DNA of 62,903 nucleotides, the filler included, from Basidiobolus ranarum (Eukaryota): NCBI GenBank assembly GCA_040143965.1. It is 56 parts of 56 records of this genome, joined end to end, with 100 filler letters (N's around TTAATTAATTAA, not from the genome) between each part and the next. Parts side by side here need not be neighbours in the genome. Positions count along the whole stretch, not along the records: positions 56,289 to 57,308 come from JASJQH010006798.1; 55 more parts are not named here. One strand, given 5' to 3'. This document shows positions 3,397 through 61,785 of the stretch, in pieces. Below the pieces are notes generated by a model. It made no database searches. It saw nothing but the letters and a program-made list of their open reading frames with translations, and was not told where the DNA came from. Both the position numbers and the translations under genes were made by a program. Each line of letters begins with the position of its first letter. The stretch's first letter is position 1.

Positions 3397-4427
3397 GGGG
3401 CCTCCGCTGCCAATGTTCCACCTTGGTAGCCACCCCGGGGAGCGGGAGCGGAACCTTTAGGAGGGTGGCCCCCCCAAATTTCATAAAGGAACCAACCAAA
3501 GAAACCTCCAAGTAGACTACCTACAACAGGTAAAATAAGATAAAAAAATGGAATAGCAAATTCAGCTTCAATAACACTTAAATGGTTAGGATGAGTGAAT
3601 AAACTATGACTAAATAAATGAGAACCTAAACCAATAAACATATCTTTAGTTAAGTAACCGATAAGTATACTTGCTAAAGCTAATACGATTAAAGGTAAAC
3701 TCATAACCATACTAGGCTCATGAGCATGAAGGTAATTAGTTTTAGTTCCATTTGGGAAAGTTAAGAATGTAAGCGCAATTAATCTGAAAGAATAAAAAGC
3801 AGTTATAATTGCAGTTAATGTACCTAACCAATAAGCGATACCACCTGTAAATAAATATCGTCCATAAGCTACTTCCAGGATAAAATCTTTTGAATAGAAT
3901 CCAGTTAAGAATGGTAATGCCATTAGACTTAATGAACCAATTAAGATATTAGTGTAAGTAAAAGGTAATAATTGTACTAAACCACCCATTTTTCTCATAT
4001 CTTGCTCATCATTCATGGCATGAATTACTGCACCTGCTGATAAAAATAATAAAGCCTTAAAGTAAGCATGATTTACTAAATGAAATAAACTTGTTGAATA
4101 ATTCGATAAACCTACCGACATTACTAAATAACCTAATTGACTACAAGTTGAGTAAGCAATTACTCTTTTTAGATCATTTTGAAGTAAAGCACTTGAAGCT
4201 CCAAAGAAAGCAGTTAATGCTCCTATCCAAGTTATTACTAATAGAGGAGTAGAACTATATTCTAATAGAGGTGATGCTCTTAATAATAAATATACACCTG
4301 CAGTCACCATTGTTGCTGCATGTATTAATGCTGATACTGGTGTTGGTCCCTCCATCGCATCGGGTAACCAAGTATGAAGAACTAATTGAGCTGATTTAGC
4401 CATTGCAGCTATTAGTAATAATATAGC
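3397..4427 (-). CDS. nad5: NADH dehydrogenase subunit 5, internal fragment (mtDNA contig or recent NUMT)
   Basis: Uninterrupted frame with [60 protein letters not shown] and GFYSKD. AT-rich mitochondrial codon usage. Confidence 0.97.
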
Positions 4428-7920: not shown

Positions 7921-8235
7921 GCACACATATTCCTGGGACCTTCCCTAACACATTCTACATGTTAGTTTGTTTACATCTTGACAAAACTATAAATGTCAAC
8001 TTTCTACTCAATAAATCAATAAGTGAAAAGCAGCAATTCCTCTAATTCTCCAAACCACTTCCAACAGGCTCATATATATTGTTTAAATCAGCACTGCCCA
8101 AACACCTATATAGCTATATATAGCTTAGTATTTAGTTATCTTTTACTTCATTAAGATATTACCCGTTATTCTCAATTGGAATTTACTTGGAATATTCTTA
8201 CCAACTTAGAAGTTCTCAGATATAGAGATTTTTCA
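7921..8235 (+). repeat. Copia LTR family A fragments (3' part, then a second 5' part)
   Basis: Matches the complete LTR at 11528-11873. Confidence 0.8.
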
Positions 8236-9050
8236 TGTTATTGCAACACTAAACATTTGATACAGAGTAAGTCTTTGAACCCTTTTTCTTTTGCCAGGTG
8301 CCTGAGCTTATCTCGAATTTTTTGCAATCATCCCATTGATTTTATGAAATGTTCAATTGATTTCTTTAATTCCTCTCATTTTAGATGAAACACTGTAGAT
8401 CTAGATTCACCCGTTGCTGTCGAAATCACCATAAGCAAAACATCTCAGTTAAAATTCATAACCTCAACCCTCCGTCGAATATCAATAATCCAGAAACGGA
8501 ATGTGTCAACTTTTGACTACCTGATTGATAATTGTACAACAGCGACAAATTTTAAACTTGGCTACTAATTAGTGATGTTTCTCTTGTTTTCTCCTACTAG
8601 CACATATAGCTCATGACCAATGGCTGAAATATCGCATATCGTTATTTTACCGATAGTGTTCTCTCTAATTCCCAAATAAGGGTTACTGATCATCACGATC
8701 GCATTGACCAATGGCTGAAACCTCGCTCGTGTAGAAACTGACCTGATTGGACGGAATGAAAAGAAGAGAAAGAGGAAATACCTAACCATCTGTTCTAGAA
8801 TTGGGCAGACTAATCCAAATTATATATATATTATATTATATAGTATTCTTTACCTTTCCCAAAGAAGGAATTCCCATTGACCAATGGCTGAAACCTCGCT
8901 TCTGTGGAAGGATTGGACAGAAGCAGGAGTGAAGGTACCTTACCGATCTGNNNNNNNNNNNNNNNNNNNNNNNNNNNNNNNNNNNNNNNNNNNNTTAATT
9001 AATTAANNNNNNNNNNNNNNNNNNNNNNNNNNNNNNNNNNNNNNNNNNNN

Positions 9051-11527: not shown

Positions 11528-11873
11528 TGTTAAAGTATTTGGGAGCCTGTTGGAAGTGGTTTGGAGTATTAGAGGAATTGGTGGTTTTCACTTATTGATT
11601 TATTGAATAGAAAGTTGAAATTTGTGGTTTTGTCAAGATATAAACAAACTGACGTGTAGATTATGTTATGGAAGGCCCTAAGAACATGTGTGCAAAGTTT
11701 GGGGCTTCTAGCACAAGTTTGAAAACCTATATATCTGAGAACTTCTAAGTTGGTAAAAATATTATAAGTAAATTCCAATTGAGAATAATTGATAATATTG
11801 TAGTAATTATAAGATAACCAAGTAGTAAGCTATACATGACTATATAGGTGCTTAGGCAATGCTAATTTCAACA
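11528..11873 (-). repeat. Complete 5' Copia LTR, family A (~346 bp), inserted into CACTA ORF2
   Basis: TGTTGAAATT...CTTTAACA on the minus strand. Many partial copies elsewhere in the window. Confidence 0.9.
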
Positions 11874-12339
11874 GATATCCTGCAATATTGTGCCACTCTG
11901 TATTAAGTTCTTGCCAGATATCTGCACGGTCAATACCAAACTGAATGTCAAGTTGAATGTTCTTCTTCTGAAGCCACTTTCTGCATACTTGCACTGCATT
12001 TTCCCTTCATACTTTTGAAAATACTCCTCAAGCACTTTGACTATTTCTCTATGTCCTTGTAGTGTGACACTACTGAGGGTGCTTTGTGGTATTTGTTTGG
12101 CTTTTTGCTTGCCTTTACCTTTGGGACTAATTTCAACACTTTGAAAAGTACCAGTAGAGGTTGGAGAGCCATGAGTTTTATTTGCTGATGCTTTGGCTTG
12201 TTGAGAGATGCCAGATGTTGGATAAACTTCCAAATTTAGCACTCTTCAAACTGGTGTACCTGGTTCCATGGTGAAATTAGGCTTTTTGCCAGTATATCTG
12301 ACTCTGGAATTACAGATCTTTGTAATGATGTGAAGAATT
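11874..12339 (-). mobile_element. CACTA ORF2 C-terminal-half fragment
   Basis: LNLEVYPTSG...PKGKGKQKA...VLEEYFQKYEGK. Confidence 0.85.
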
Positions 12340-18082: not shown

Positions 18083-18843
18083 AATACCTGTATAGTCATA
18101 TATAGCTTAGTACTTAGTTATCTTATAACTCACTATGATATTATCAATTATTCTCAATTGGAATTTACTTAGAATGTTTTTACCCACTTAGAAGTTCTCA
18201 GATATATAGATTTTTCAAACTTGTGCTAGAAGCCCCAAACTTTGCACATATGTTCCTGGGACTTTCCTTAGCATATTCTACATGTTAGTTTGTTTACATC
18301 TTGACAAAACTATAAATGTCATCTTTCTACTCAACAAATCAATAAGTGAAAACCACCAATTCCTCTAATTCTCCAAACCACTTCCAGCAGGATCCCAAAT
18401 ACTTTAACAAAGTAAACTGCTCAAAGACTTGGTGTTTCTCAAAGTTTACCCACCAAAATTTTCAAGGATAATCTCAGTTGTATTTCTTTAGCTAAAAATT
18501 CCAAATTTCATGCTAGAAGTAAGCATATTGACACTCAGCATCACTTTGTTAGGGAAGATATTGAGAATATGCACATCCAACCAGAGTACTGTCCAACTGT
18601 GGGCATGATTGCTGACATCCTTACCAAACCATTACCCAAGACAAAATTTGAAGAATTAAGATATAAGTCAGGATTAAGATATATGTTTATTTAGTTGAGT
18701 GGGAGTGTTGTTGGTTTTGTTTATTATATTTTTTATCTCTATCTTTATACACCTAACTGTTTCATGTAGCACATATAAGTTAGTTAACATTACTTGGGCA
18801 AATATCACTTAACTGCCAATTGGAACATATATTATATATATAT
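18083..18843 (+). mobile_element. Copia LTR-A (to 18409), RNase H end, polypurine tract, LTR-C start (18706)
   Basis: RSKHIDTQHHFVR, ADILTKPL, then GAGTGGGAG followed by TGTTG. Confidence 0.85.
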
Positions 18844-19110
18844 CTCTAACAAAAATAAAATCCATATGATCCGGATCGGATCCACCCTCCGAAATAGCAA
18901 AACCGTTAGAGAACCATCACAATATTGCTGGCTTGCATTCTGCCGGGATTTTGATGGTGAGATGGCGGTTTCTTGACAGTATCTTAATGGTATTCATATA
19001 TGTTAAAATATTGATCCTCAAATTTGGCATGCGTTATTCAATAACCAGCAATTTTTGCAAAAATATAATTTTTGAATGGCAAATTACTGGGTTTACTGCT
19101 GTAGGAATTT
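18844..19110 (+). mobile_element. CACTA right terminus inserted into the TA-rich tract of LTR-C
   Basis: CTCTAACAAAAATAAAATC..., same as 26427 and 59266. Confidence 0.8.
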
Positions 19111-20451: not shown

Positions 20452-20459
20452 GCATTGAA

Positions 20460-20863
20460 TGTGTAAAGGAAAGTCCTGAAAATGTGTGTGCAAAGTTAGG
20501 GGCTTCTAACACAAGTTTGAAAAAGCTATATATCTGAGAACTTCTAAGTTGGTAGAAATATTCTAAGTAAATTCCAAATAAGAATAATAGATAATATCTT
20601 GGTGAAATGTAAGATATTTCAGTACCAAGCTATGTATGACCATAAAGTTACTTATGCAATTTAATTTCAACACTCTCTCTCAACTAAATAGTCATGTAAA
20701 CTAATCTTAATAAAGGTCCAAATTGCTCAAATATCTCTCTAGCTAATAGTTTGATTAACATATCAGCAAAAATGTCTTCTGTACAATTATAAGTTAAATT
20801 AATAAGATTATTCTCTATCGACCCTCTAATAAAGTGATGTCCAATATCTGTATGTTTGCTTCT
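20460..20863 (-). mobile_element. Copia RNase H end, polypurine tract and 3' LTR (A-like)
   Basis: SKHTDIGHHFIR, ADMLIK and GAGAGAGAG before TGTTGAAATT. Confidence 0.8.
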
Positions 20864-34969: not shown

Positions 34970-35993
34970 TGAATGTCAAGTTGAATGTTCTTCTTCTAAA
35001 GCCACTTTCTGCATACTTGCACTGAGTTTTTCCCTTCATACTTTTGAAAATACTCCCCAAGCACTTTGAGTATTCTTGTTCATACTTGTAATGTGACACA
35101 ACTAAGGGTGCTTTGTGATGTTTGTGTGGATTTTTGCTTGCCTTTAATTTTGAGGCTAATTTCAACACTTTGAAAAGTACCAGTCAAGGTTGTAAAGCCA
35201 TCAGTTTTATTTGCTGGTGTTTTGACTTGTTGAGGGGTGCCAGGTCCTGGATAAATTTCAGAATTTAGCAGTAATGGAGCTGATTGTTATAATTTAAAGA
35301 AACAACCTACCATGGCACTTTCTACAACAGAAGTGGAGTACATGGTTGCCAGTGAAGCAACAAAAGAATCAATACAGTTACTAAAGCTCTCTACAGGTTT
35401 AGGTTATTCTTAAAGTTCACCCACTACCCAATTTCAAAATCATCAAAGTTGTATCAAATTAGATAAAAATCCCATATTTCATGATAGAAGCAAGCATATA
35501 GATATTAGATATCAATTCATTAGAGAGACTGTAGAGGATAAGCTTATCAACTTATTATTCTACACAAGACATGATTGCTGATATACTAACCCAACATTAG
35601 CTTGACAGAAATTTGGAGCTTCCTTTGGATTTGTAAATATGACCATATAGCTGGGTGAGAGTGTCAAAATTAGCATTGCCTAGGCATCTATGTAGTCATA
35701 TATAACTTTAACTTATTTATCCTATATTTTGCTAACCTAATACCTATTACTTGCAATTGGAATTTACTTTGAATATTTCTGGCTACATAGAAGTTCTTGT
35801 TAGAGGATCTTGACATAATGAGAGTATACTGTGTGTATTAGAAGCAACATATGATAGTGAATGTTAATTACTTTATTCTTAGGAGCATATGGTGACTTAT
35901 TTGGTAGAAAGGTAAATTAATTGTTTCAGAAATTCAGGATTTGGCTTAATAAGATATAGTAGAGAAGTGGGGGTAATAAGACATACTTGTTAT
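34970..35993. mobile_element. Mosaic: CACTA ORF2 (-) to ~35270, Copia RNase H (+), polypurine tract, LTR-A-like and LTR-D fragments
   Basis: KKQPTMALSTTEVEY, RSKHIDIRYQFIR; LTR start TGTCAAAATTAGC at ~35662. Confidence 0.8.
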
Positions 35994-39464: not shown

Positions 39465-40487
39465 CCAAGCCCACCATTGTATTAACATTGCTGAATCAAC
39501 ATTCTCCCAGCTATCTGGTGGATACCCTGCAATATTGTGCCACTCTGTATTAGGTTCTTCCCAGATATCTGCATGGTCAACACCAGACTAAATGTCAAGT
39601 TGAATGTGCTTCTTTTGAAGCCACTTTCTGCATACTTGCACTGCATTTTTCCATTCAAACTTTTGAAAATACTCCTCAAGCACTATGACTATTTTTGTAT
39701 GTCCTTGTAGCATAATACTACTGAGGGTGCTTAGTGGTGTGTCTGTGGCTTTTTGCTTGCCTTTACCTTTAGGGCTAACTTCAACATTGTGAAAAGTACC
39801 AGTAGAGGTTGGAGAGCTGTGAGTTTTATTTGCTGATGTTTTGGCTTGTTGAGAGATGCCAGGTGTTGGATAAACTTCCAAATTTAGCACTCTTCCAAAT
39901 GTTGTACCCGGTTCCATGGTTAAATTAAGCTTTTTTGTTGGTATATCTGACTCTGGAAATGCAGATTTTTGCAATGGTGTGAAGAATTTGGTTAGTGGGA
40001 CAGCAGAGCCTAAGCTTACTGCCTCCTTAGCTTTTCCCTTGAGTTTACTAACTTCCTGCTCCTTCAGTACCTCTTTAGCTGCTTTTCTTTCTTTTCCAAG
40101 TCAATAATTGCATACATTTTTGAGATGATTCATGAATAGGCCTATACTAGCCCAATTGCCATTTGCTTGCAAAAGCCCAGGATAAGACACATGAAATAAG
40201 TCAAGAACCTTCAGAGTAATGCCCGTTTTTTGGTTTTTCCTTGAATGGCTCCAATCCAGGTGATTTTGGGCAAGATTCCACTCAGTTTCCAAAATGTTAA
40301 ACCACTCATTATCAGAGCAAGTGATGGCAGCTCTGACATTAAGAGTCTTTTGATTTGCTGGTTTTCCTATAAGATTTCTACTTTCATGTGCCCAAGCAAT
40401 GTTGGGTTGTTGTGTAGGCCTAATGGTCCAACACATATTCTGCTCTGCTAGATTGGCATAGTGATGTTTATATGTATGGTGTGGCAT
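39465..40487 (-). mobile_element. CACTA ORF2 central to C-terminal fragment
   Basis: EWFNILET...NWASIGLFMNHLKN...CRKWLQKKHIQLDI. Confidence 0.85.
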
Positions 40488-49565: not shown

Positions 49566-50586
49566 TCTGGCATTTATCCAATGTTAAAATTAGAATTGCC
49601 TAAGCACCTATATGGTCAAGTATAGCTTTGTATTTAGTTACCCTACACTTCATTAAGGTATTACCCATTATTCTCCATTGGAATTTATTTTGGATAGCCT
49701 GACAAACTATATATATTTTAATGTTCCAAAGTGAGCAAACCTAACTTTCAACAGTCACACTAATGCAATGAGAATAATGGTGTTCCCAAGCTCCTATATC
49801 CAATATAATATACCTAGCTATCCTAAATTGGCATACATAATGTATAGAAGTTGAGTGGATTTTCAGATGTTTGAAAAGTACTGTGGAGTGGTACTCAGAG
49901 TACACATATTCTGGGTCAAATTTTAATCTGATGGGATATTCAGATACAAGTTGAGGAAGGGATATTGAAGATAGTACTGAAATAAGCATTGCCTAAACAC
50001 CTATGTAGTCATATATAGCTTTGTACTTAGTTATCTTATATTGAACTAAGATATTATCCATTATTCTTGATTGGAATTCACTCAGAATATTGACACCAAC
50101 TTAGAAGTTCTCAGATATACAGATTTTTCAAACTTGTGCTAGAAACCCCAAAATTTGCACACATGTTTTGGAGACCCTCCTAAATACACTCAAGATGTCA
50201 CTTTGCTTACATCTTGACAAATCTATAAATGTCAATTTTCAGCTCAATCCATCCACAAGTGAATAACCACCAATTTCTCTAATTTTCCAAACCATTTCCT
50301 GTTGAAGTTTATTGTCTTTATCATATTTATGATCTCTATCTTTATACACCTAACTATTTCATATATCACATACAAGTTAGTTAACATTACTTAGTCAAAT
50401 ATCACTTAGCTGAAAATCGGAACATATAGTATATATATATATGAATAATGTGAGAATTAGCAATTCCATATTGGCAATTTCAAACTCGTCCAAATTGCCC
50501 CAAAAATAGCTCATTTTACTCCCACAGATGTTCTGAACACAACCCCAGTGTTAGTTTTCTGTATTTCCACCAAAAAGTATAAATGC
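49566..50586 (+). repeat. Nested Copia LTR-A and LTR-C fragments with a short RT/RNase H remnant
   Basis: LTR-A-like starts at ~49582 and ~49977, LTR-C starts at ~50300; LMGYSD remnant at ~49930. Confidence 0.75.
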
Positions 50587-51807: not shown

Positions 51808-52103
51808 GGTGGTTTTCACTTATTGATTTATTGAGTAGAAAGTTGACATTTATAGTTTTGTCAAGATGTAAACAAACTAACGTGTAGAATATGTTAAGGA
51901 AGGTCCCAGGAACATGTGGGCAAAGTTTGGGGCTTCTAGCACAAGTTTGAAAAATCTATATATCTGGGAACTTCCAAGTTGGTAAAAATATTCTAAGTAA
52001 ATTCCAATTGAGAATAATTGATAATATCTTAGTGAATTATAAGATAACTAAGCACTAAGCTACATATGACTATACAGGTGTTTAGGCAATGCTAATTTCA
52101 ACA
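51808..52103 (-). repeat. Copia LTR-A fragment
   Basis: Matches 11580-11873. Confidence 0.85.
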
Positions 52104-52928: not shown

Positions 52929-53830
52929 GAAATTTGAGGATTGATATCATAGGAAAACCATCACAATTTTATTCCATTTGGGATTGATTTTTTTTTACTG
53001 TCATAAAATTGTCAAATTAGATTTGATTTTAATCATTTTTTTCAGTTTCAGGAGTGAAATTTCAAGATCTTGCAAAAGAGTGGTCCATGATTGGCTACAA
53101 TCTCAGAGAACTACAGATCAACACATGTGCAAAAAACATAACTCAAATTTTGCACCAATACCACTTGTACACTAATTTGTCACCTTCAAAATCCCTGGTC
53201 TCTTAGATATATTCTCCCAAATATTTTTATAGAGTTCTTCATACCCAAGGCTTAGCTCATACCCAACACAAGTGTGTATCAATATCTCCATCAAAGCCTA
53301 CCGTTGTAATAATATTGCTGAATCAACATTCTTCCAGCTATCTGGTGGATACCCTGCAATATTGTGCCACTCTTTATTAAGTTCTTCCCAGATATCTCCA
53401 CAGTCAACACCAGACTGAATGACAAGTTGAATGTTCTTCTTCTGAAGCAACTTTGTGCTACTTGCACTGCATTTTTCCCTTCATACTTTTGAAAATACTC
53501 CTCAAGCACTTTGACTATTTTTGTACATCCTTGTAGTGTGACACTACTGATGGTTCTTTGTGGTGTTTGTGCGGCTTTTTGCTTGCCTTTACCTTTGGGG
53601 CTAATTTCAACCCTTTGAAAAGTACCAGTTGAGGTTAGAGAGCTGTGAGTTTTATTTGCTGGTGTCTTGGCTTGTTGAGAGGTGCCAGGTGTTGGATAAA
53701 CTTCTAAATTTAGCAATCTTGCAAATGGTGTTCCTGGTTCCATTGTAAATTTAGCTTTTTTGCCTCTATATCTGACTCTGGAATTGCAGATCTTTGTAAT
53801 GCTACAAAGAATTTAATAAGTGGGACAGTA
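52929..53830 (-). mobile_element. CACTA left subterminal region contiguous with the ORF2 3' half
   Basis: Links the GAAATTTGAGGATTG left end to the ORF2 C-terminus. Confidence 0.85.
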
Positions 53831-55168: not shown

Positions 55169-56188
55169 ATGTCTGGAAAAGCAGATATAGAATTTGGTGG
55201 AGAAATAGAGAGTCAGGTAGAGGAACACTAGAGATGTGTTTACTGAGGCCGGACCATCAACTGAATTTAATTTCCCAGACCTCTGGACGGTATTCGCAGA
55301 AGTGATATTTAAATATTAGTTTAAACCTCTTTACGCTAAGATTTGCTCATAACTATTTTACACCATCTTTTGGAGTTATTAGCGTGATACGGTTGTGTAT
55401 ATTCAATTAGATTTTATAATAGAAAATAAATACTCTCTTTCTTATCTACACCTTAATTGTTCGCCCCAATGTTATTCACTCTGTTTACTTGGATTCTGTG
55501 GTTCTATTAATAAGAATGATTTATAGAATCGCTCGATTGGTTAAGCCACTGCAGCTCCCTCTGTCGAGACCATACTAATTAAGGCTAAGTCAGGGTGGAT
55601 TGCAATCATTTAATCTGGATAATAGATTAATCAACACGTGAAACAAGTATGATGTAAATAAGGGCTTAGGTGGCAAGAGCCGGTGGCGTAATAATTCAAG
55701 TGACCTTCATGTGTAGAGGTATCCAATGAGTTTTACGATATCGAAATAATTCCATTGAGGGATGTTATTCTTCTCAGATTATCTATCTTAACCAAAACAG
55801 AGATTTGCTGTGTACAGAACGGGTTACTGGCATTTGGTGAAGTAATGGTTATTTATTAAATATACATAAGTGACAAATCTAACGAAATTCATGAAAGACG
55901 TCTAAGGTGTCATCTAGTTGAACTGCTCCAAGAAATTAACAAACATTGATTTTAATATTACAGACAAAATAGTTACCATAATTGCTAGTTCTAAATAACT
56001 TTCCTATGAAACCAAATATTCTTAATTCTCTACGAAATATTGTTCCTTCTATTCTCTTATCATCTAGAAGTCTGCGAAATTAAATACAGTTGATGGCCCG
56101 GCCTCATTGAACACCTCCGTTCTATCCACATCCCCTCTCTCTGAATCTCTATTTCTCCATCCGAACCTATGCCTACTTCTCCAGGCAC
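55169..56188. repeat. Contig bounded by a ~125-135 bp diverged inverted repeat (55169-~55295 and ~56055-56188)
   Basis: The left arm TGAGGCCGGACCATCAACTGAATTTAATTTC and TGGAGAAATAGAGA recur in reverse complement at the right end. Confidence 0.85.
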
Positions 56189-56288: not shown

Positions 56289-56436
56289 GATTCTCAATTG
56301 GAATTTACTCAGATTATTATACCTAATTAGATGTTCTCTGATATATATATCTTTCTAACTTGTGCTAGAAGCCCCTAACTTTGCACACATGTTCCTGGGA
56401 CTTTTCTTAACACACTCTGCATGTTGGTCTGTTAAC
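56289..56436 (+). repeat. Truncated Copia LTR-A
   Basis: Matches the LTR-A internal part and abuts the Fanzor relic. Confidence 0.8.
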
Positions 56437-56440
56437 TTAG

Positions 56441-56748
56441 GGTAGGGTTAGCTAACCCTTTAAACTTGTCAATTTCACCATTCGGGCCAGTAACACACAG
56501 ACTTGAAGTTTTAAACTCGTCAAGGAGGAATAGCTCTAAGCCTTCTTTGGCTAGCATTTTCTCATTCTGACACCTCTATTGCGCTCTTGAAACTTTACAT
56601 TTCCAGCAGACCAGTTACCAAGTATTAATATAGTATTATCCTCAAATCTCTCTCGAAGATTCTTGGCAAGCCGTTTTTCTGATTGTAGTTCGTGAATGAA
56701 ACTTGAGATCTTTATTTCTCTAAAAGATAATAAACTATATATGATCAT
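56441..56748 (-). pseudogene. Fanzor (TnpB-derived RNA-guided endonuclease) relic, RuvC-II to zinc-finger region
   Basis: FREIKISSFIHELQSEKRLAKNLRERFEDNTILILGNWSAGNVKFQERNRGVRMR, a 1-nt frameshift at ~56559, then MLAKEGLELFLLDEFKTSSLCVTGPNGEIDKFKGLANP. Confidence 0.85.
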
Positions 56749-56959
56749 TACATTGATTTATCGAATGTAATATGAGCCTTGGTTCGCAATACCACATTCA
56801 GCATATGATTATAAAAGCACATGGATTCATTAGTAAACTTTCTGACTCTCTAAACTTCAAAAATAATAATCATTTTAATAAATCACTTTTATTTCTATAT
56901 TTACATTCTAAGTTTACAAAGTTCTCTTTGGAAGTCATCTTACGAACAGTCAAATCATT

Positions 56960-57307
56960 TTAAACCTTATTTTTCTCTTCCAGGTTGCCACGTCCTCCAA
57001 ACATATGATCAATTTGTTCCAAACTCTTTCCTTTAGTCTCAGGTACAAAGAAGTACACAAAGATGAACATAAGGACACCACATGCTCCAAAGATCATATA
57101 CAGTCCCCAGCTAATAGAGTTGATCAAGGGTGGAACAACAAGAGCAATGATGAAGTTGAAGGCCCAGTTAGAAGCAGTGGTAATACTCATGCACTTGGCA
57201 CGGACACGAGTAGAGTAGATTTCTGATGGGTAAATCCAACCAATGGGTCCCCAGGTACAGGCGAAGAATGCAACAAACAAGTAGATCAAAGCCATCGTGG
57301 CATAGCC
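56960..57307 (-). CDS. MFS sugar porter, 3' part
   Basis: TWGPIGWIYPSEI...R.K...ASNWAFNF...VPETKGKSLEQID signature. Confidence 0.95.
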   Translation of the reverse strand, partial: GYATMALIYLFVAFFACTWGPIGWIYPSEIYSTRVRAKCMSITTASNWAFNFIIALVVPPLINSISWGLYMIFGACGVLMFIFVYFFVPETKGKSLEQIDHMFGGRGNLEEKNKV

Positions 57308-57479
57308 ANNNNNNNNNNNNNNNNNNNNNNNNNNNNNNNNNNNNNNNNNNNNTTAATTAATTAANNNNNNNNNNNNNNNNNNNNNNNNNNNNNNNNNNNN
57401 NNNNNNNNTATCATATATGTTGTCTCTATCTTTGAACACCTAACTATTTCATATATCAAATACAGGTTAATTCAGATTC

Positions 57480-58428
57480 CCTATCAATATGTATATCTTA
57501 ATCCTGGATCAAATGTCCTCTTTGAATATCTGAAAATCTGCTTAACTGCTGAATAATGCTCAGATCCTGGGTTTTGCACATGTTAGCTAACAACTCTCAC
57601 TGCAAAAGAGATATATGGCCAGGTTCTAGTCATAGCATATATCAAACCACCTACGACAGATTGATAAGCAAGCTCAGGGCTTGCAAATGGATATTTTGAG
57701 CATAAATTGGCCTATTTTCATCATTTTTGATGGGATTTTTGAATAGTTTCACACTTGGATCCACGGGAGTTACTACTGGCTTACAGTTCTCCATCCTGTG
57801 ACATCTGAGAACGTCTGAAATGTATTTAGATTGATTCAGTGTAATAGAATTACTCAATATATTTGTATGGATCTGCAGGCCTAAAAAATATATATGTTCA
57901 CCTAAATCAGTCATCTTGAATTGGACTGATAGATCTCTTTTGGTGTTACTGAGAGCTTCTTCATTATTGATAGCTGTAAGCAGTTCATCTACATATAAGG
58001 CAAGTATCACTAACTGTTCTTATCTGTCTTAAAGTAGATCCCAAAATCAGCTGTACTCTTTTGGAAATCATGCAATTCCAAGTATTTGTCTATCTTAGTG
58101 TACCAGGCCCTGGATAATTGGTCAAGTCCATAAAGTGATTTTTGTAGTTTACACACGTCCTCAGGGTGCTCAGGATCCACAAAACCATCTGGTTGATCCA
58201 TGTATATATCCTCATCCAAGTCACCATTCAAAAAAGCAGTATTAACATCCATTTGATGGATTTTTAAGCTGTGTCTTGCTGCTACTGCTAGTATGGTTCT
58301 GATGAAACTAAACTTAGCTACAGGAGCAAATGTTTCATTGTAGTCCACTCCTTCCATTTGAGAGTATCCTTTAGCCACAAGTCTAGCTTCATATCTTTTG
58401 ACAGATTCATTAGCTTACTGTTTAACAA
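57480..58428 (-). mobile_element. Copia reverse transcriptase fragment
   Basis: ETFAPVAK, QMDVNTAFLNG, LYVDE and MTDLGE. Confidence 0.94.
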
Positions 58429-59647: not shown

Positions 59648-60666
59648 CTGATCAAGATATCATAGTTACAGTCCTGAATAGCCTGCCACATGTGTCTCAG
59701 AGCCTAGTAATGGCTCTAGATTCAAGAACTGAAAATTTGACCTTAAGTTATGTATTTGGCAGACTTCTGGATGAAGATATAGGCAAATCAGTACTCAACC
59801 AAAAGAATGAGGAAAATGCTTTAATAGGCAATGGGAAACCTTCTTATAAGGGTCAAAAGCACTTTAAGAAGAAAAGTAACGCATTCTGCAATTACTGTAA
59901 AAGAACTGGCCATTTAAGCAAAGATTGCTTTAAAAGAACTGCAAAAGAAGAAAAACATTGTGAATCTGGAAATGTGGTTATAACAAAAGATCACTTGTTC
60001 ATTTTTGCTCTATCTATGACTACCAACAAGGATTCTCAGATGTGGTATACTGATTCAGGAGCTTCCCAACATTTCACAAATGAAAAACATTGGTTTCTGG
60101 AATGTGAAGAAATCCCAATTAGAAAGGTTTTCATGGGAGATGACTGCACATTGGATGCTATTGGAATGGTAACAATTCAAGTCAATTTCACTGGAGTTTC
60201 TGAAGAGAAAGTATATACTTTTAAGGATGTACTACATGTTCAAGATACTGCCAAGAATTTAATATCTGTATGAAAGGCCACCTCTGAAGGGCCAAAATTC
60301 AATTTTGATAAGTCAGGATGCACCATCACAAATCAAAATGGGAATTATTTAGCTTTGGGAGAAAAAGATCACAGCTCATATAAACTTACATATAATCCAA
60401 GAGATTTATGTGTAAATATAGGTTATTCCAATCTAGAAACTATTCAAATATGGCATAAGAGATTTGGCCATATTGGATTTGATTATTTGAGCAAATTCAT
60501 CAAAAATCACATAATTTTGGAATTCAAATTAACCCCCCAACCAAAATGGAAATTTGTGAGGATTGTATATATGAAAAACAAGGCAGGCAACTGTTCAAGA
60601 GCTCTGGTTTAATCAAATCTGTCAAAAAATGGGATCTAATTCATTCAGATATGTGTGGACCTATGC
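59648..60666 (+). mobile_element. Copia gag zinc knuckle, protease and GAG-pre-integrase
   Basis: CNYCKRTGHLSKDC, WYTDSGASQH and IWHKRFGH. Confidence 0.95.
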
Positions 60667-60888: not shown

Positions 60889-61785
60889 ATGTGGATATAT
60901 TCTCCTGATGAAGTGCAACATCTTAGCACACAACAGCTTTTAAGTCAAATTACCAATGAGATTGGGTTTACAGCAAATAATTTTTCAACACACAGTACTC
61001 CACTCAGATATTTAGCTGATTTGAAGATACAATTGAAGGATTATCAGAAAGTTGGAGTATTATGGCTTAAACAGACCAAAGAGCACTCTCATAATGTATT
61101 GTTAGCTGATGCAATGGGATTAGGAAAAACAATACAAGTGTTAAGTCTGATATTAGAAGCACTGGAATTGCATTGCAATTTAATTGTGGTTCCACATGGT
61201 TTAATCCTCAATTAGATGAAGGAGATTATGGAAAAAAACCAACATCCCTCAAGATGATATTCACTTATTTTATGGGCAATACCAAGCTATACAACCTGAA
61301 GATCTGGAAAAAAAGCGGACAGTTATCACCACTTATGGAACATTGAGTATTGAAGCTATTCATTGTAACTTGCCTCTTTGGCATATTAAGTTCCAGCATA
61401 TTGTAGCTGACAAAGCCAATGTTCCAAAGAACTCTGCTGGCTTGAGTTTTGATAGTATTATAAAACTTTACACTTGCAAAATGCTACTTATTACCGCTAC
61501 CCCATTTCAAAACGACTTTATGGATTTGTACTCATATTTCTGTTTATTGAAAGTTTACCAAGGAACCCAAAGAGACTTTAAACAAATAGTAATTGAGGAA
61601 AAGAATGCCAATAGACTGGTGGAATGGGTGACTCAAAATATTGGTCACCTTGTATTGCGGCGCGTGCCAGAATCGAGGCTTATGGGTGAGAAAATCATTG
61701 AAATACCCCTCATTAGGCAACATATTACAGTATGCCACTTTAATGATGAAGAGCGGGCTTTATGTAATCAACTGGCGTTGGATTT
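60889..61785 (+). pseudogene. SNF2-family helicase ATPase N-lobe, disrupted
   Basis: LKDYQKVGVLWL, LADAMGLGKTIQ, LIVVP...N* (TAG at a conserved Trp position), TTYGTL, IVADKAN (degenerate DEAH), ITATPFQN and LRR. Frameshift at ~61235. Confidence 0.88.

What the first reader, a model, noticed from the sequence alone, without database searches (positions are those of the whole stretch)
56441..56748. Fanzor (eukaryotic TnpB-like RNA-guided nuclease) relic hidden by a frameshift
Seen: the 65-aa ORF at 56551-56748(-) continues after a 1-nt frameshift as MLAKEGLELFLLDEFKTSSLCVTGPNGEIDKFKGLANP. Known: fungal Fanzor1 proteins show the pattern FRK.K.S......RL...L...FG....L..G(D/N)WS......EP..G.G.R..L...GF...L.DEF.TS..CP.C........NPR. 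In these, Gly replaces the canonical RuvC-II Glu and a downstream Glu is catalytic (here DEFKTS, codon 56516-56518), followed by the first CxxC of the zinc finger (decayed here to CVTG). RuvC-I, RuvC-III and the 3' omegaRNA region are missing; the 3' side is cut at a Copia LTR fragment. The relic sits ~210 bp downstream of a sugar transporter and keeps its CpGs, unlike the neighbouring repeats. Inference: this genome hosts or hosted a Fanzor-carrying element, and intact copies with their omegaRNA may exist elsewhere as an uncharacterised system. This copy is dead.
Basis: partly seen in the sequence, partly recalled or inferred. Interest (0 to 1): 0.88.

Follow-up and report, generated by a model that had tools for sequence, protein, structure and literature searches.

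The report
Dead Fanzor1 gene fragment in fungus
This is a short, broken leftover of a Fanzor1 gene (a transposon-borne RNA-guided DNA cutter of eukaryotes) sitting behind a sugar transporter gene in a Basidiobolus-like fungus; it cannot work, and such leftovers are ordinary in early-diverging fungi.

Summary
On the minus strand, 56733-56444 encodes about 97 codons in two frames. These match Parasitella parasitica Fanzor1 (PDB 9cf0) at abutting, collinear positions: chain 1092-1150 (E 1e-9) and 1151-1188 (E 7.4e-5). The break is a 1-nt deficit at an A4 run, 56557-56560.

A 694-node profile of 21 long fungal Fanzor1 relatives matches only nodes about 492-591. The N-terminal ~70%, RuvC-I, the second half of the zinc finger, RuvC-III and any omegaRNA region are absent. 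The Fanzor1-typical Gly and the downstream Glu (56516-56518) are kept. Seven of 27 strongly conserved positions are lost, including Pro and the second Cys of CPxC.

The 3' side abuts an internal point of a dispersed, CpG-free, ~325-bp LTR-like repeat. Its Copia assignment is not shown.

The window is 56 unrelated ~1-kb contigs joined by N spacers. Only 56289-57308 is real context. The transporter on that contig is 84-87% identical to Basidiobolus proteins.

No other Fanzor piece lies in the window. No genome or reads were available.

Verdict: a real but dead Fanzor1 relic of a known family in a lineage where it is common. Low interest.

The parts
56444..56733 (-). Fanzor1 relic: about 97 codons in two frames. 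It corresponds to the last RuvC strands, the catalytic-Glu loop and the first part of the TNB zinc ribbon (PpFz1 fusion-chain residues 1092-1188; profile nodes about 492-591 of 694).
56551..56748 (-). 65-aa ATG-to-stop ORF holding the first piece of the relic (FREIK...GNWSAGNVKFQERNRGVRMRK, then C and stop).
56557..56560 (-). A4 run where the reading frame shifts by one base. It lies between ...GVRMRK and MLAKEG...; relatives read ...GMRK/R-ML.K.G... without a break.
56516..56518 (-). Glu codon of LLDEFKTSS. It aligns with the conserved Glu of Fanzor1 (>=80% conserved among 110 relatives), which is the alternative catalytic Glu of the family.
   Evidence: PMC10530073, PMC3627910
56486..56497 (-). 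Decayed first CxxC of the zinc ribbon. It reads C-V-T-G where relatives have C-P-x-C (Pro 95% and second Cys 89% conserved).
56290..56436 (+). Internal fragment (unit positions about 89-236 of about 325) of a dispersed LTR-like repeat with TGTTG...CAACA ends. It has no CpG, is cut by the contig edge on the left, and abuts the relic on the right.
56749..56959 (.). AT-rich spacer (27% GC) between the transporter stop codon and the relic ORF. It shows no detectable Fanzor homology in any frame.
56960..57308 (-). 3' end of a sugar-porter (MFS) gene, open to the contig edge. It is 84-87% identical to Basidiobolus ranarum and B. meristosporus transporters.
56289..57308 (.). The 1020-bp contig that is the only real physical context of the relic. 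The N-spacers on both sides join it to unrelated contigs.

Best explanation
A Fanzor1-carrying DNA transposon once lay just downstream of a sugar-porter gene in a Basidiobolus-like fungus. What remains is a non-functional pseudogene fragment of about 290 nt. It covers the end of the RuvC domain and the start of the zinc-ribbon (TNB) domain.

The fragment has lost everything upstream: the WED and REC domains, and RuvC-I with its Asp. It has also lost everything downstream of the 'NP' motif: the rest of the zinc finger, the RuvC-III 'RD' motif, the stop codon, the omegaRNA and the transposon end. It carries a 1-nt frameshift and substitutions at conserved positions.

The 3' loss coincides with a junction to an internal point of an LTR-like repeat. 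This points to a deletion or rearrangement after a retroelement arrived nearby, not a clean insertion.

The fragment has no nuclease or guide-RNA function. At most it is transcribed passively with the transporter's 3' region.

Shown here: the homology, the extent, the frame break, the lost residues, the flanks and the host affinity. Inferred: the order of events and the original transposon.
For: 1. Both pieces match PpFz1 (9cf0) at abutting positions: 1092-1150 (E 1e-9) and 1151-1188 (E 7.4e-5). Both also match SpuFz1 (8gkh).
2. Read through with X at the break, the peptide scores about 99 bits against Rhizopus and B. ranarum relatives.
3. Piece 1 finds 96 representatives at E<=1e-3 among 1.84 billion proteins. 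The named ones are all early-diverging fungi: Basidiobolus, Rhizopus, Helicostylum, Cokeromyces, Mucor, Bifiguratus, Syncephalis, Coemansia and Gongronella. A long relative, P0211, matches PpFz1 at E 1.6e-140.
4. The 694-node profile matches only nodes 492-556 (80 bits) and 552 to about 591 (42 bits), in two minus-strand frames. Nothing else on the contig matches.
5. Of 27 positions >=80% conserved in 110 relatives, 20 are kept and 7 lost. The lost ones are K of FRK, P of HEP, a Gly, a Val, a Leu, and P and the second C of CPxC.
6. The transporter stop codon lies about 225 nt upstream of the homology start, so there is no room for the missing ~490 profile nodes.
7. The 3' flank 56290-56436 is 80-85% identical to six other copies in the window. 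Four of them (those aligned) continue about 90 bp past the junction point; two stop short of or at it.
8. The transporter on the same contig is 84-87% identical to Basidiobolus proteins, so the contig is fungal and not a contaminant.
Against: - The frameshift lies in a homopolymer on a 1-kb contig of a fragmented assembly.
- The relic-repeat junction could be an assembly chimera.
- Both reading frames are otherwise free of stop codons over 65 and 40 codons, and the relic keeps CpG (o/e 0.59). Inactivation may therefore be fairly recent, or the segment may be under some constraint.
- The original transposon type, its ends and target-site duplications are not visible.
Confidence: 0.9

Rival explanations
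1. The locus is part of an intact or nearly intact Fanzor1 gene. It looks broken only because of assembly or sequencing errors: a homopolymer miscall and a chimeric or truncated 1-kb contig.
For: The frameshift sits in an A4 run. The contig is one of 56 contigs of about 1 kb, and one end lies in a repeat. Both frames are free of other stop codons.
Against: Within the same contig, the transporter stop is only about 225 nt upstream of the homology start. No frame of the contig matches profile nodes 1-491. The second Cys and the Pro of CPxC, and 5 other conserved positions, are substituted, which a single miscall cannot explain. A chimera would need two independent misjoins.
Confidence: 0.06
2. 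The fragment has been exapted. It might act as a small expressed ORF (65 aa) or as a 3'-UTR or regulatory element of the transporter gene, and so be kept by selection.
For: It lies on the same strand as the transporter and 211 nt downstream of it. It retains CpG (o/e 0.59) while 38 of 56 contigs in the window have o/e <0.15. It has long open frames.
Against: No orthologous conserved copy could be examined. The only Basidiobolus relatives found are other decayed fragments of 120 and 181 aa at 53-66% identity. The 65-aa ORF has no family match of its own apart from Fanzor1. CpG retention is expected for any single-copy sequence not targeted as a repeat.
Confidence: 0.03
3. The similarity is chance, or it reflects a prokaryotic TnpB or contaminant rather than a eukaryotic Fanzor1.
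For: No Pfam family was reported for either piece at E<=10.
Against: There are two abutting collinear matches to one solved Fanzor1, and about 99 bits when read through. All named relatives are fungal. The same contig carries a Basidiobolus-type transporter. Long relatives themselves reach Pfam's Cas12f1-like_TNB only below its cut-off, so the Pfam miss is expected.
Confidence: 0.01

Closest known systems
Fanzor1 of Parasitella parasitica (PpFz1, PDB 9cf0-9cf3; Xu et al. 2024, PMC11423790) and its Rhizopus/Mucorales relatives
   Same: The best solved match. The relic aligns without gaps, other than the frame break, to fusion-chain residues 1092-1188. It shares the motifs FRK.K.S, GNWSA, LlDEFkTSS.C and NP. 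In a 98-column tree the relic lies inside the clade holding the Rhizopus, Helicostylum and Cokeromyces sequences (96/85 support).
   Different: The relic covers only about 14% of the protein. It is frameshifted, lacks RuvC-I, RuvC-III, the rest of the zinc ribbon and the omegaRNA, and is only about 50-57% identical to these relatives.
Fanzor1 of Spizellomyces punctatus (SpuFz1, PDB 8gkh; Saito et al. 2023, PMC10432273)
   Same: Weaker but collinear matches (E 0.011 and 0.11). The relic's Gly and Glu align to chain positions 899 and 935. That spacing of 36 equals the spacing of the 'extremely conserved G500 and E536' of Bao and Jurka 2013 (PMC3627910). Saito et al. name E541 among the Mg-coordinating residues. 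Equating E541 with chain 935 assumes a 394-residue tag, which I did not verify. That genome also holds partial Fanzor loci and loci with LTR-element insertions.
   Different: SpuFz1 loci are intact, with 30-nt inverted repeats and a 3' omegaRNA. None of these is present here.
Basidiobolus ranarum hypothetical proteins K7432_007251 (P0001, 181 aa) and K7432_005041 (P0002, 120 aa)
   Same: These are the closest lineage relatives. P0001 is 66% identical over 79 aligned residues and is sister to the relic in the tree, with moderate support (88/84). P0001 reads straight through the relic's break point (...GVGMRKMLAKEG...).
   Different: They are annotated as short genes in another species. P0001 has Gln in place of the conserved Glu (DQF) and CPTF in place of CPxC, so it looks decayed too. 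Orthology of the loci could not be tested.
Prokaryotic TnpB (IS200/IS605, IS607) and Cas12f
   Same: They share the ancestral fold and domain order (RuvC split by a TNB zinc ribbon). Long relatives of the relic give sub-threshold hits to Pfam PF07282 Cas12f1-like_TNB.
   Different: Canonical TnpB keeps the RuvC-II Glu where Fanzor1, and this relic, has Gly (PMC10530073). The relic's own pieces give no Pfam hit.

Membership tests
Fanzor1 (eukaryotic TnpB-like RNA-guided nuclease) | Significant sequence homology to experimentally characterised Fanzor1 proteins | tested here: met
   PpFz1 at E 1e-9 and 7.4e-5, abutting and collinear. SpuFz1 at E 0.011 and 0.11. About 99 bits when read through.
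Fanzor1 (eukaryotic TnpB-like RNA-guided nuclease) | RuvC-I Asp: the first D of D-X(125,275)-[TS]-[TS]-x-x-C4-X(5,50)-RD (Bao and Jurka 2013) | tested here: not met
   No frame of the contig matches profile nodes 1-491. The transporter stop is about 225 nt upstream.
Fanzor1 (eukaryotic TnpB-like RNA-guided nuclease) | Gly (or Pro) at the canonical RuvC-II Glu position, plus an alternative conserved Glu downstream | tested here: met
   The G of GNWS and the E of DEF are both kept and are >=80% conserved in 110 relatives. The family rule comes from PMC10530073 and PMC3627910.
Fanzor1 (eukaryotic TnpB-like RNA-guided nuclease) | [TS]-[TS]-x-x followed by a complete C4 zinc ribbon (TNB) | tested here: not met
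   T-S-S-L-C is present, but the first pair reads C-V-T-G (second Cys lost). The second Cys pair (CHGLLRC..C region of relatives) is absent.
Fanzor1 (eukaryotic TnpB-like RNA-guided nuclease) | RuvC-III 'RD' motif (WNRD in the relatives) | tested here: not met
   Homology ends at 'NP' (56444). The sequence beyond it is the LTR-like repeat.
Fanzor1 (eukaryotic TnpB-like RNA-guided nuclease) | Uninterrupted full-length ORF | tested here: not met
   A 1-nt frame break at 56557-56560. Only about 97 of roughly 600-900 codons remain.
Fanzor1 (eukaryotic TnpB-like RNA-guided nuclease) | omegaRNA at or after the 3' end of the ORF, next to the transposon end | tested here: not met
   The 3' region of the gene is missing and replaced by an LTR-like fragment. 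Rfam gives no match on the contig at E<=1. Whether Rfam models Fanzor omegaRNAs was not checked.
LTR retrotransposon long terminal repeat (for the 3' flank 56290-56436) | Dispersed repeat of a few hundred bp with 5'-TG...CA-3' inverted termini | tested here: met
   Unit of about 325 bp running TGTTGAAAT...CCAACA. Six further copies lie in five other contigs of the window.
Ty1/Copia superfamily (for the same flank) | LTR physically linked to Copia-type gag-pol (RVT_2) in the same orientation | tested here: inconclusive
   ORFs next to LTR copies give no Pfam family. RVT_2 lies on a different contig, 57409-58428. That contig shares only a 70-80 bp stretch with the contigs carrying LTR copies at 18083-19110 and 49566-50586, outside the LTR copies themselves.
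Sugar porter family, MFS (for 56960-57308) | Match to Pfam Sugar_tr above the curated cut-off | tested here: met
   PF00083, 119.4 bits against a cut-off of 22.3, profile positions 350-452 of 452.

The most novel reading that the evidence does not exclude
The Basidiobolus lineage, not named with Fanzor in any paper my search reached, still carries intact, active Fanzor1 elements of a Mucorales-like subclade with their own omegaRNA and TAM. This relic and the two decayed B. ranarum fragments would be their debris. That could also point to transfer of Fanzor-bearing transposons between Mucorales and Basidiobolus.
Probability: 0.15. Interest if true: 0.35.

Novelty: new member of a known kind. 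Interest (0 to 1): 0.12.

Why it matters
It matters little. [quoted passage not shown] 2023). Partial or retroelement-disrupted copies are already described.

The relic shows only that a Fanzor1-bearing element was once present in a Basidiobolus-like genome. A search of the library for papers holding both 'Fanzor' and 'Basidiobolus' found none. Supplementary tables of the survey papers, which may list Basidiobolus, could not be read.

The practical value is as a pointer. If the full assembly is screened, any intact copy would add one more Fanzor1 orthologue to a long list.

A more useful by-product concerns the window itself. It is a chain of unlinked ~1-kb contigs, so any finding in it that relies on gene neighbourhood across N blocks is unsafe.

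Tried and rejected
- **Pfam on the two pieces** gave no family at E<=10. This is not evidence against homology. Long relatives themselves reach PF07282 only below its cut-off, or not at all.
- **Whole-genome search and laying the genome.** No genome is held for this window.
- **Other Fanzor pieces in the window.** tblastn of 96 relatives and the 694-node profile against 336 frames of 56 contigs found only the relic's contig.
- **Residual homology upstream of 56733 or downstream of 56444.** None was found. One tblastn extension into the repeat (P0040) is a gapped, low-identity tail and was rejected.
- **Testing 'Copia' for the LTR-like repeat.** ORFs adjacent to other copies have no Pfam family, so this stays undecided.
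- **Rfam on the contig.** No match at E<=1.
- **Long Basidiobolus Fanzor proteins.** None of the 14 long homologues of P0001 comes from Basidiobolus. This is weak evidence, because the search depends on shared words and on gene calls.
- **Earlier notes of this scan.** None exist for this genome.
- **First tree (66 rows).** It dropped the B. ranarum rows because they had fewer than 85 aligned residues. I repeated it with 28 chosen rows. With 98 columns, many forks remain unresolved.

Full report
**1. What is in the sequence**

On the minus strand, the ATG-to-stop ORF 56748-56551 reads MIIYSLLSFREIKISSFIHELQSEKRLAKNLRERFEDNTILILGNWSAGNVKFQERNRGVRMRKC*. The next frame reads ...EKMLAKEGLELFLLDEFKTSSLCVTGPNGEIDKFKGLANPTLS*. 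The two frames overlap at an A4 run (56557-56560). The Lys codon of the first frame and the Met codon of the second share base 56557. Relative to an unbroken reading, one base is missing there.

**2. Is it Fanzor?**

Yes. Each piece was searched separately against all solved-structure sequences.
- Piece 1 hits Parasitella parasitica Fanzor1 (9cf0) at E 1e-9. Query residues 8-64 align to chain 1092-1150.
- Piece 2 hits the same chain at E 7.4e-5. Query residues 6-44 align to chain 1151-1188.
- The two matches abut exactly and are collinear.
- Spizellomyces punctatus Fanzor1 (8gkh) is the second hit for both pieces, at E 0.011 and 0.11.

Other searches agree.
- Piece 1 alone finds 96 cluster representatives at E<=1e-3, four of them at E<=1e-10, among 1.84 billion proteins.
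- Twenty representatives were looked up. Fourteen carry an organism name, and every name is an early-diverging fungus: Basidiobolus ranarum, Rhizopus delemar and R. microsporus, Helicostylum, Cokeromyces, Mucor mucedo, Bifiguratus, Syncephalis, Coemansia and Gongronella. Four have no name at all, and two carry only the label 'hypothetical protein'.
- A long relative from Rhizopus arrhizus (P0211, 577 aa) matches PpFz1 at E 1.6e-140. The family identity of these relatives is therefore secure.
- B. ranarum protein P0001 reads ...NRGVGMRKMLAKEGFQLYLLDQF... straight through the break point. This confirms the break is a frameshift, not two unrelated ORFs.
- Read through with X at the break inside a script, the peptide scores about 99 bits against the best relatives.
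- Pfam reports nothing for the pieces. It also fails, or stays below its cut-off, on the long relatives. That miss carries no weight.

**3. How much of the gene is left?**

I built a profile of 694 nodes from 21 long relatives.
- It matches the contig only at nodes 492-556 (80 bits, one minus frame) and 552-612 (42 bits, the next minus frame).
- Real similarity in the second match ends at the 'NP' motif, near node 591.
- No frame matches nodes 1-491 or the C-terminal ~100 nodes.

In the alignment, relatives continue after NP with RP.RR....V.CHGLLRC.N..C......WNRD.AA.NF. That stretch holds the second half of the zinc ribbon and the RuvC-III 'RD' motif. All of it is absent here.

Upstream, the stop codon of a sugar-porter gene on the same strand lies only about 225 nt before the homology start (PF00083, E 2.4e-34). 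There is no room for the missing N-terminal ~70% of the protein.

**4. State of the remaining residues**

Among 110 relatives, 27 positions are at least 80% conserved. The relic keeps 20 of them. These include the Gly of GNWS, the Glu of DEF, the T-S pair, the first Cys and the NP motif. It has lost 7:
- K of FRK
- P of HEP
- a Gly
- a Val
- a Leu
- Pro of CPxC
- the second Cys of CPxC, which now reads C-V-T-G

Three papers give the family rules.
- Jiang et al. 2023 state that Fanzors carry Gly or Pro in place of the RuvC-II Glu, with an alternative conserved Glu about 45 residues away (PMC10530073, passages).
- Bao and Jurka 2013 give the signature D-X(125,275)-[TS]-[TS]-x-x-C4-X(5,50)-RD. 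They note an extremely conserved G500 and E536 in Fanzor1 (PMC3627910, passages).
- Xu et al. 2024 place the catalytic Glu on the loop between the fifth strand and the TNB domain (PMC11423790, passages).

The relic's Gly and Glu align to SpuFz1 fusion-chain positions 899 and 935, which is the same spacing of 36. Saito et al. 2023 name E541 as Mg-coordinating (PMC10432273, passages). Equating E541 with chain 935 assumes a 394-residue tag, which I did not verify.

**5. The flanks and the true context**

The window is not one stretch of genome. It consists of 56 blocks whose lengths fall monotonically from 1032 to 1018 bp. Each pair is joined by N44-TTAATTAATTAA-N44. These are size-sorted small contigs chained with a six-frame-stop spacer. 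Only 56289-57308 is physically linked to the relic.

On that contig, 56290-56436 is 80-85% identical to six other copies in five other contigs. Aligned, these define a unit of about 325 bp with TGTTG...CAACA ends, which is LTR-like.
- The copy beside the relic spans only unit positions about 89-236.
- On one side it is cut by the contig edge.
- On the other it meets the relic at an internal LTR position.
- A clean retroelement insertion would place an LTR terminus at the junction. A later deletion or rearrangement, or an assembly chimera, is therefore needed to explain it.

I could not show that the repeat belongs to a Copia element. ORFs next to other copies have no Pfam family, and the Copia-type RT lies on another contig.

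**6. Host**

The transporter fragment on the same contig is 84-87% identical to proteins of B. ranarum and B. meristosporus. It is at most 65% identical to everything else listed. The contig therefore comes from a Basidiobolus-like fungus.

In a 98-column tree of 28 chosen rows:
- The relic pairs with B. ranarum P0001 (66% identity over 79 residues, support 88/84).
- This pair sits inside a clade otherwise made of Mucorales sequences (96/85).
- That clade is apart from the Coemansia, Syncephalis, Bifiguratus and Gongronella rows.

With so few columns this is only a hint. P0001 itself has Gln for the conserved Glu and CPTF for CPxC, so it too looks decayed.

**7. The CpG remark**

The relic has 6 CpG against 10.2 expected (o/e 0.59). 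The abutting LTR-like fragment has 0 against 4.4 expected. Six other LTR copies have 0-1 CpG each, with normal GpC.

Across the window, 38 of 56 contigs have o/e below 0.15 and 12 have 0.35 or more. The simplest reading is that the relic is single-copy DNA that escaped whatever process depletes CpG in the repeats.

**8. What could not be tested**

No genome is held and no sequencing runs are offered. I therefore could not test whether the A-run frameshift is real, whether the junctions are real, or whether intact copies exist elsewhere in this organism.

Two negative results bear on intact copies.
- In the window, none of the 55 other contigs has a Fanzor match.
- In the protein databases, the only Basidiobolus relatives found are fragments of 120 and 181 aa. 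None of the 14 long homologues of P0001 is from Basidiobolus. This is weak negative evidence.

**9. Comparison and verdict**

By descent this is a Fanzor1 sequence. By function it fails five of the seven family features tested: RuvC-I, a complete C4, RuvC-III, an intact ORF and the omegaRNA region.

The family is well known in this part of the fungal tree.
- In S. punctatus, 42 loci hold full-length (19) or partial genes. Some have Ty3 elements inserted in or beside the gene.

A library search for 'Fanzor' with 'Basidiobolus' found no paper. Supplements were closed.

The finding is real and correctly read by the first stage. It is ordinary transposon debris, so interest is low.

Noticed in passing
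whole window, 1-62903: The window is a chain of 56 contigs whose lengths fall from 1032 to 1018 bp, each joined by N44-TTAATTAATTAA-N44. Adjacent blocks are not physically linked, so any neighbourhood argument across an N block is unsafe.
   Followed up: yes
whole window, per contig: CpG content is bimodal. Of 56 contigs, 38 have CpG o/e below 0.15 (several have 0.00), and 12 have 0.35 or more. GpC is normal in the repeats checked. This suggests strong methylation-linked or RIP-like CpG loss confined to repeats in this genome.
   Followed up: partly
window 7921-8235; also 11528-11873, 18083-18409, 49978-50299, 51808-52103, 20457-20672: An LTR-like repeat family of about 325 bp (TGTTG...CAACA). 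In contig 7921-8950, the tail of one copy (7921-8071) is followed within a few bases by the head of another (8076-8235). This may be a tandem or solo-LTR arrangement.
   Followed up: partly
window 55169-56188: This 1020-bp contig has inverted arms at both ends (55170-55292 against 56058-56187, 73-83% complementary). It could be a foldback or MITE-like element, or an assembly artefact.
   Followed up: no
window 3399-4427 (-): A 343-aa frame is open across the whole contig and matches Proton_antipo_M (E 2.1e-59). It is probably a mitochondrial NADH dehydrogenase subunit fragment.
   Followed up: no
window 57654-58414 (-), 59650-60270 (+), 61220-61783 (+): On separate contigs: Copia-type reverse transcriptase (RVT_2) split over two overlapping frames, a Pol beta-barrel domain, and an SNF2-related domain.
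   Followed up: no
window 11874-12339 and copies at 27-493, 39521-39988, 53348-53813, 34970-35270: An abundant repeat (87-90% identity between copies) abuts the head of the LTR-like unit. Its ORFs of 125-173 aa have no Pfam family. It may be the 3' internal part of the retroelement.
   Followed up: partly
protein P0001 (B. ranarum K7432_007251, 181 aa) and P0002 (K7432_005041, 120 aa): Both are annotated as hypothetical proteins but are short Fanzor1-derived fragments. P0001 has DQF for DEF and CPTF for CPxC, so the sister species also seems to hold decayed copies.
   Followed up: partly
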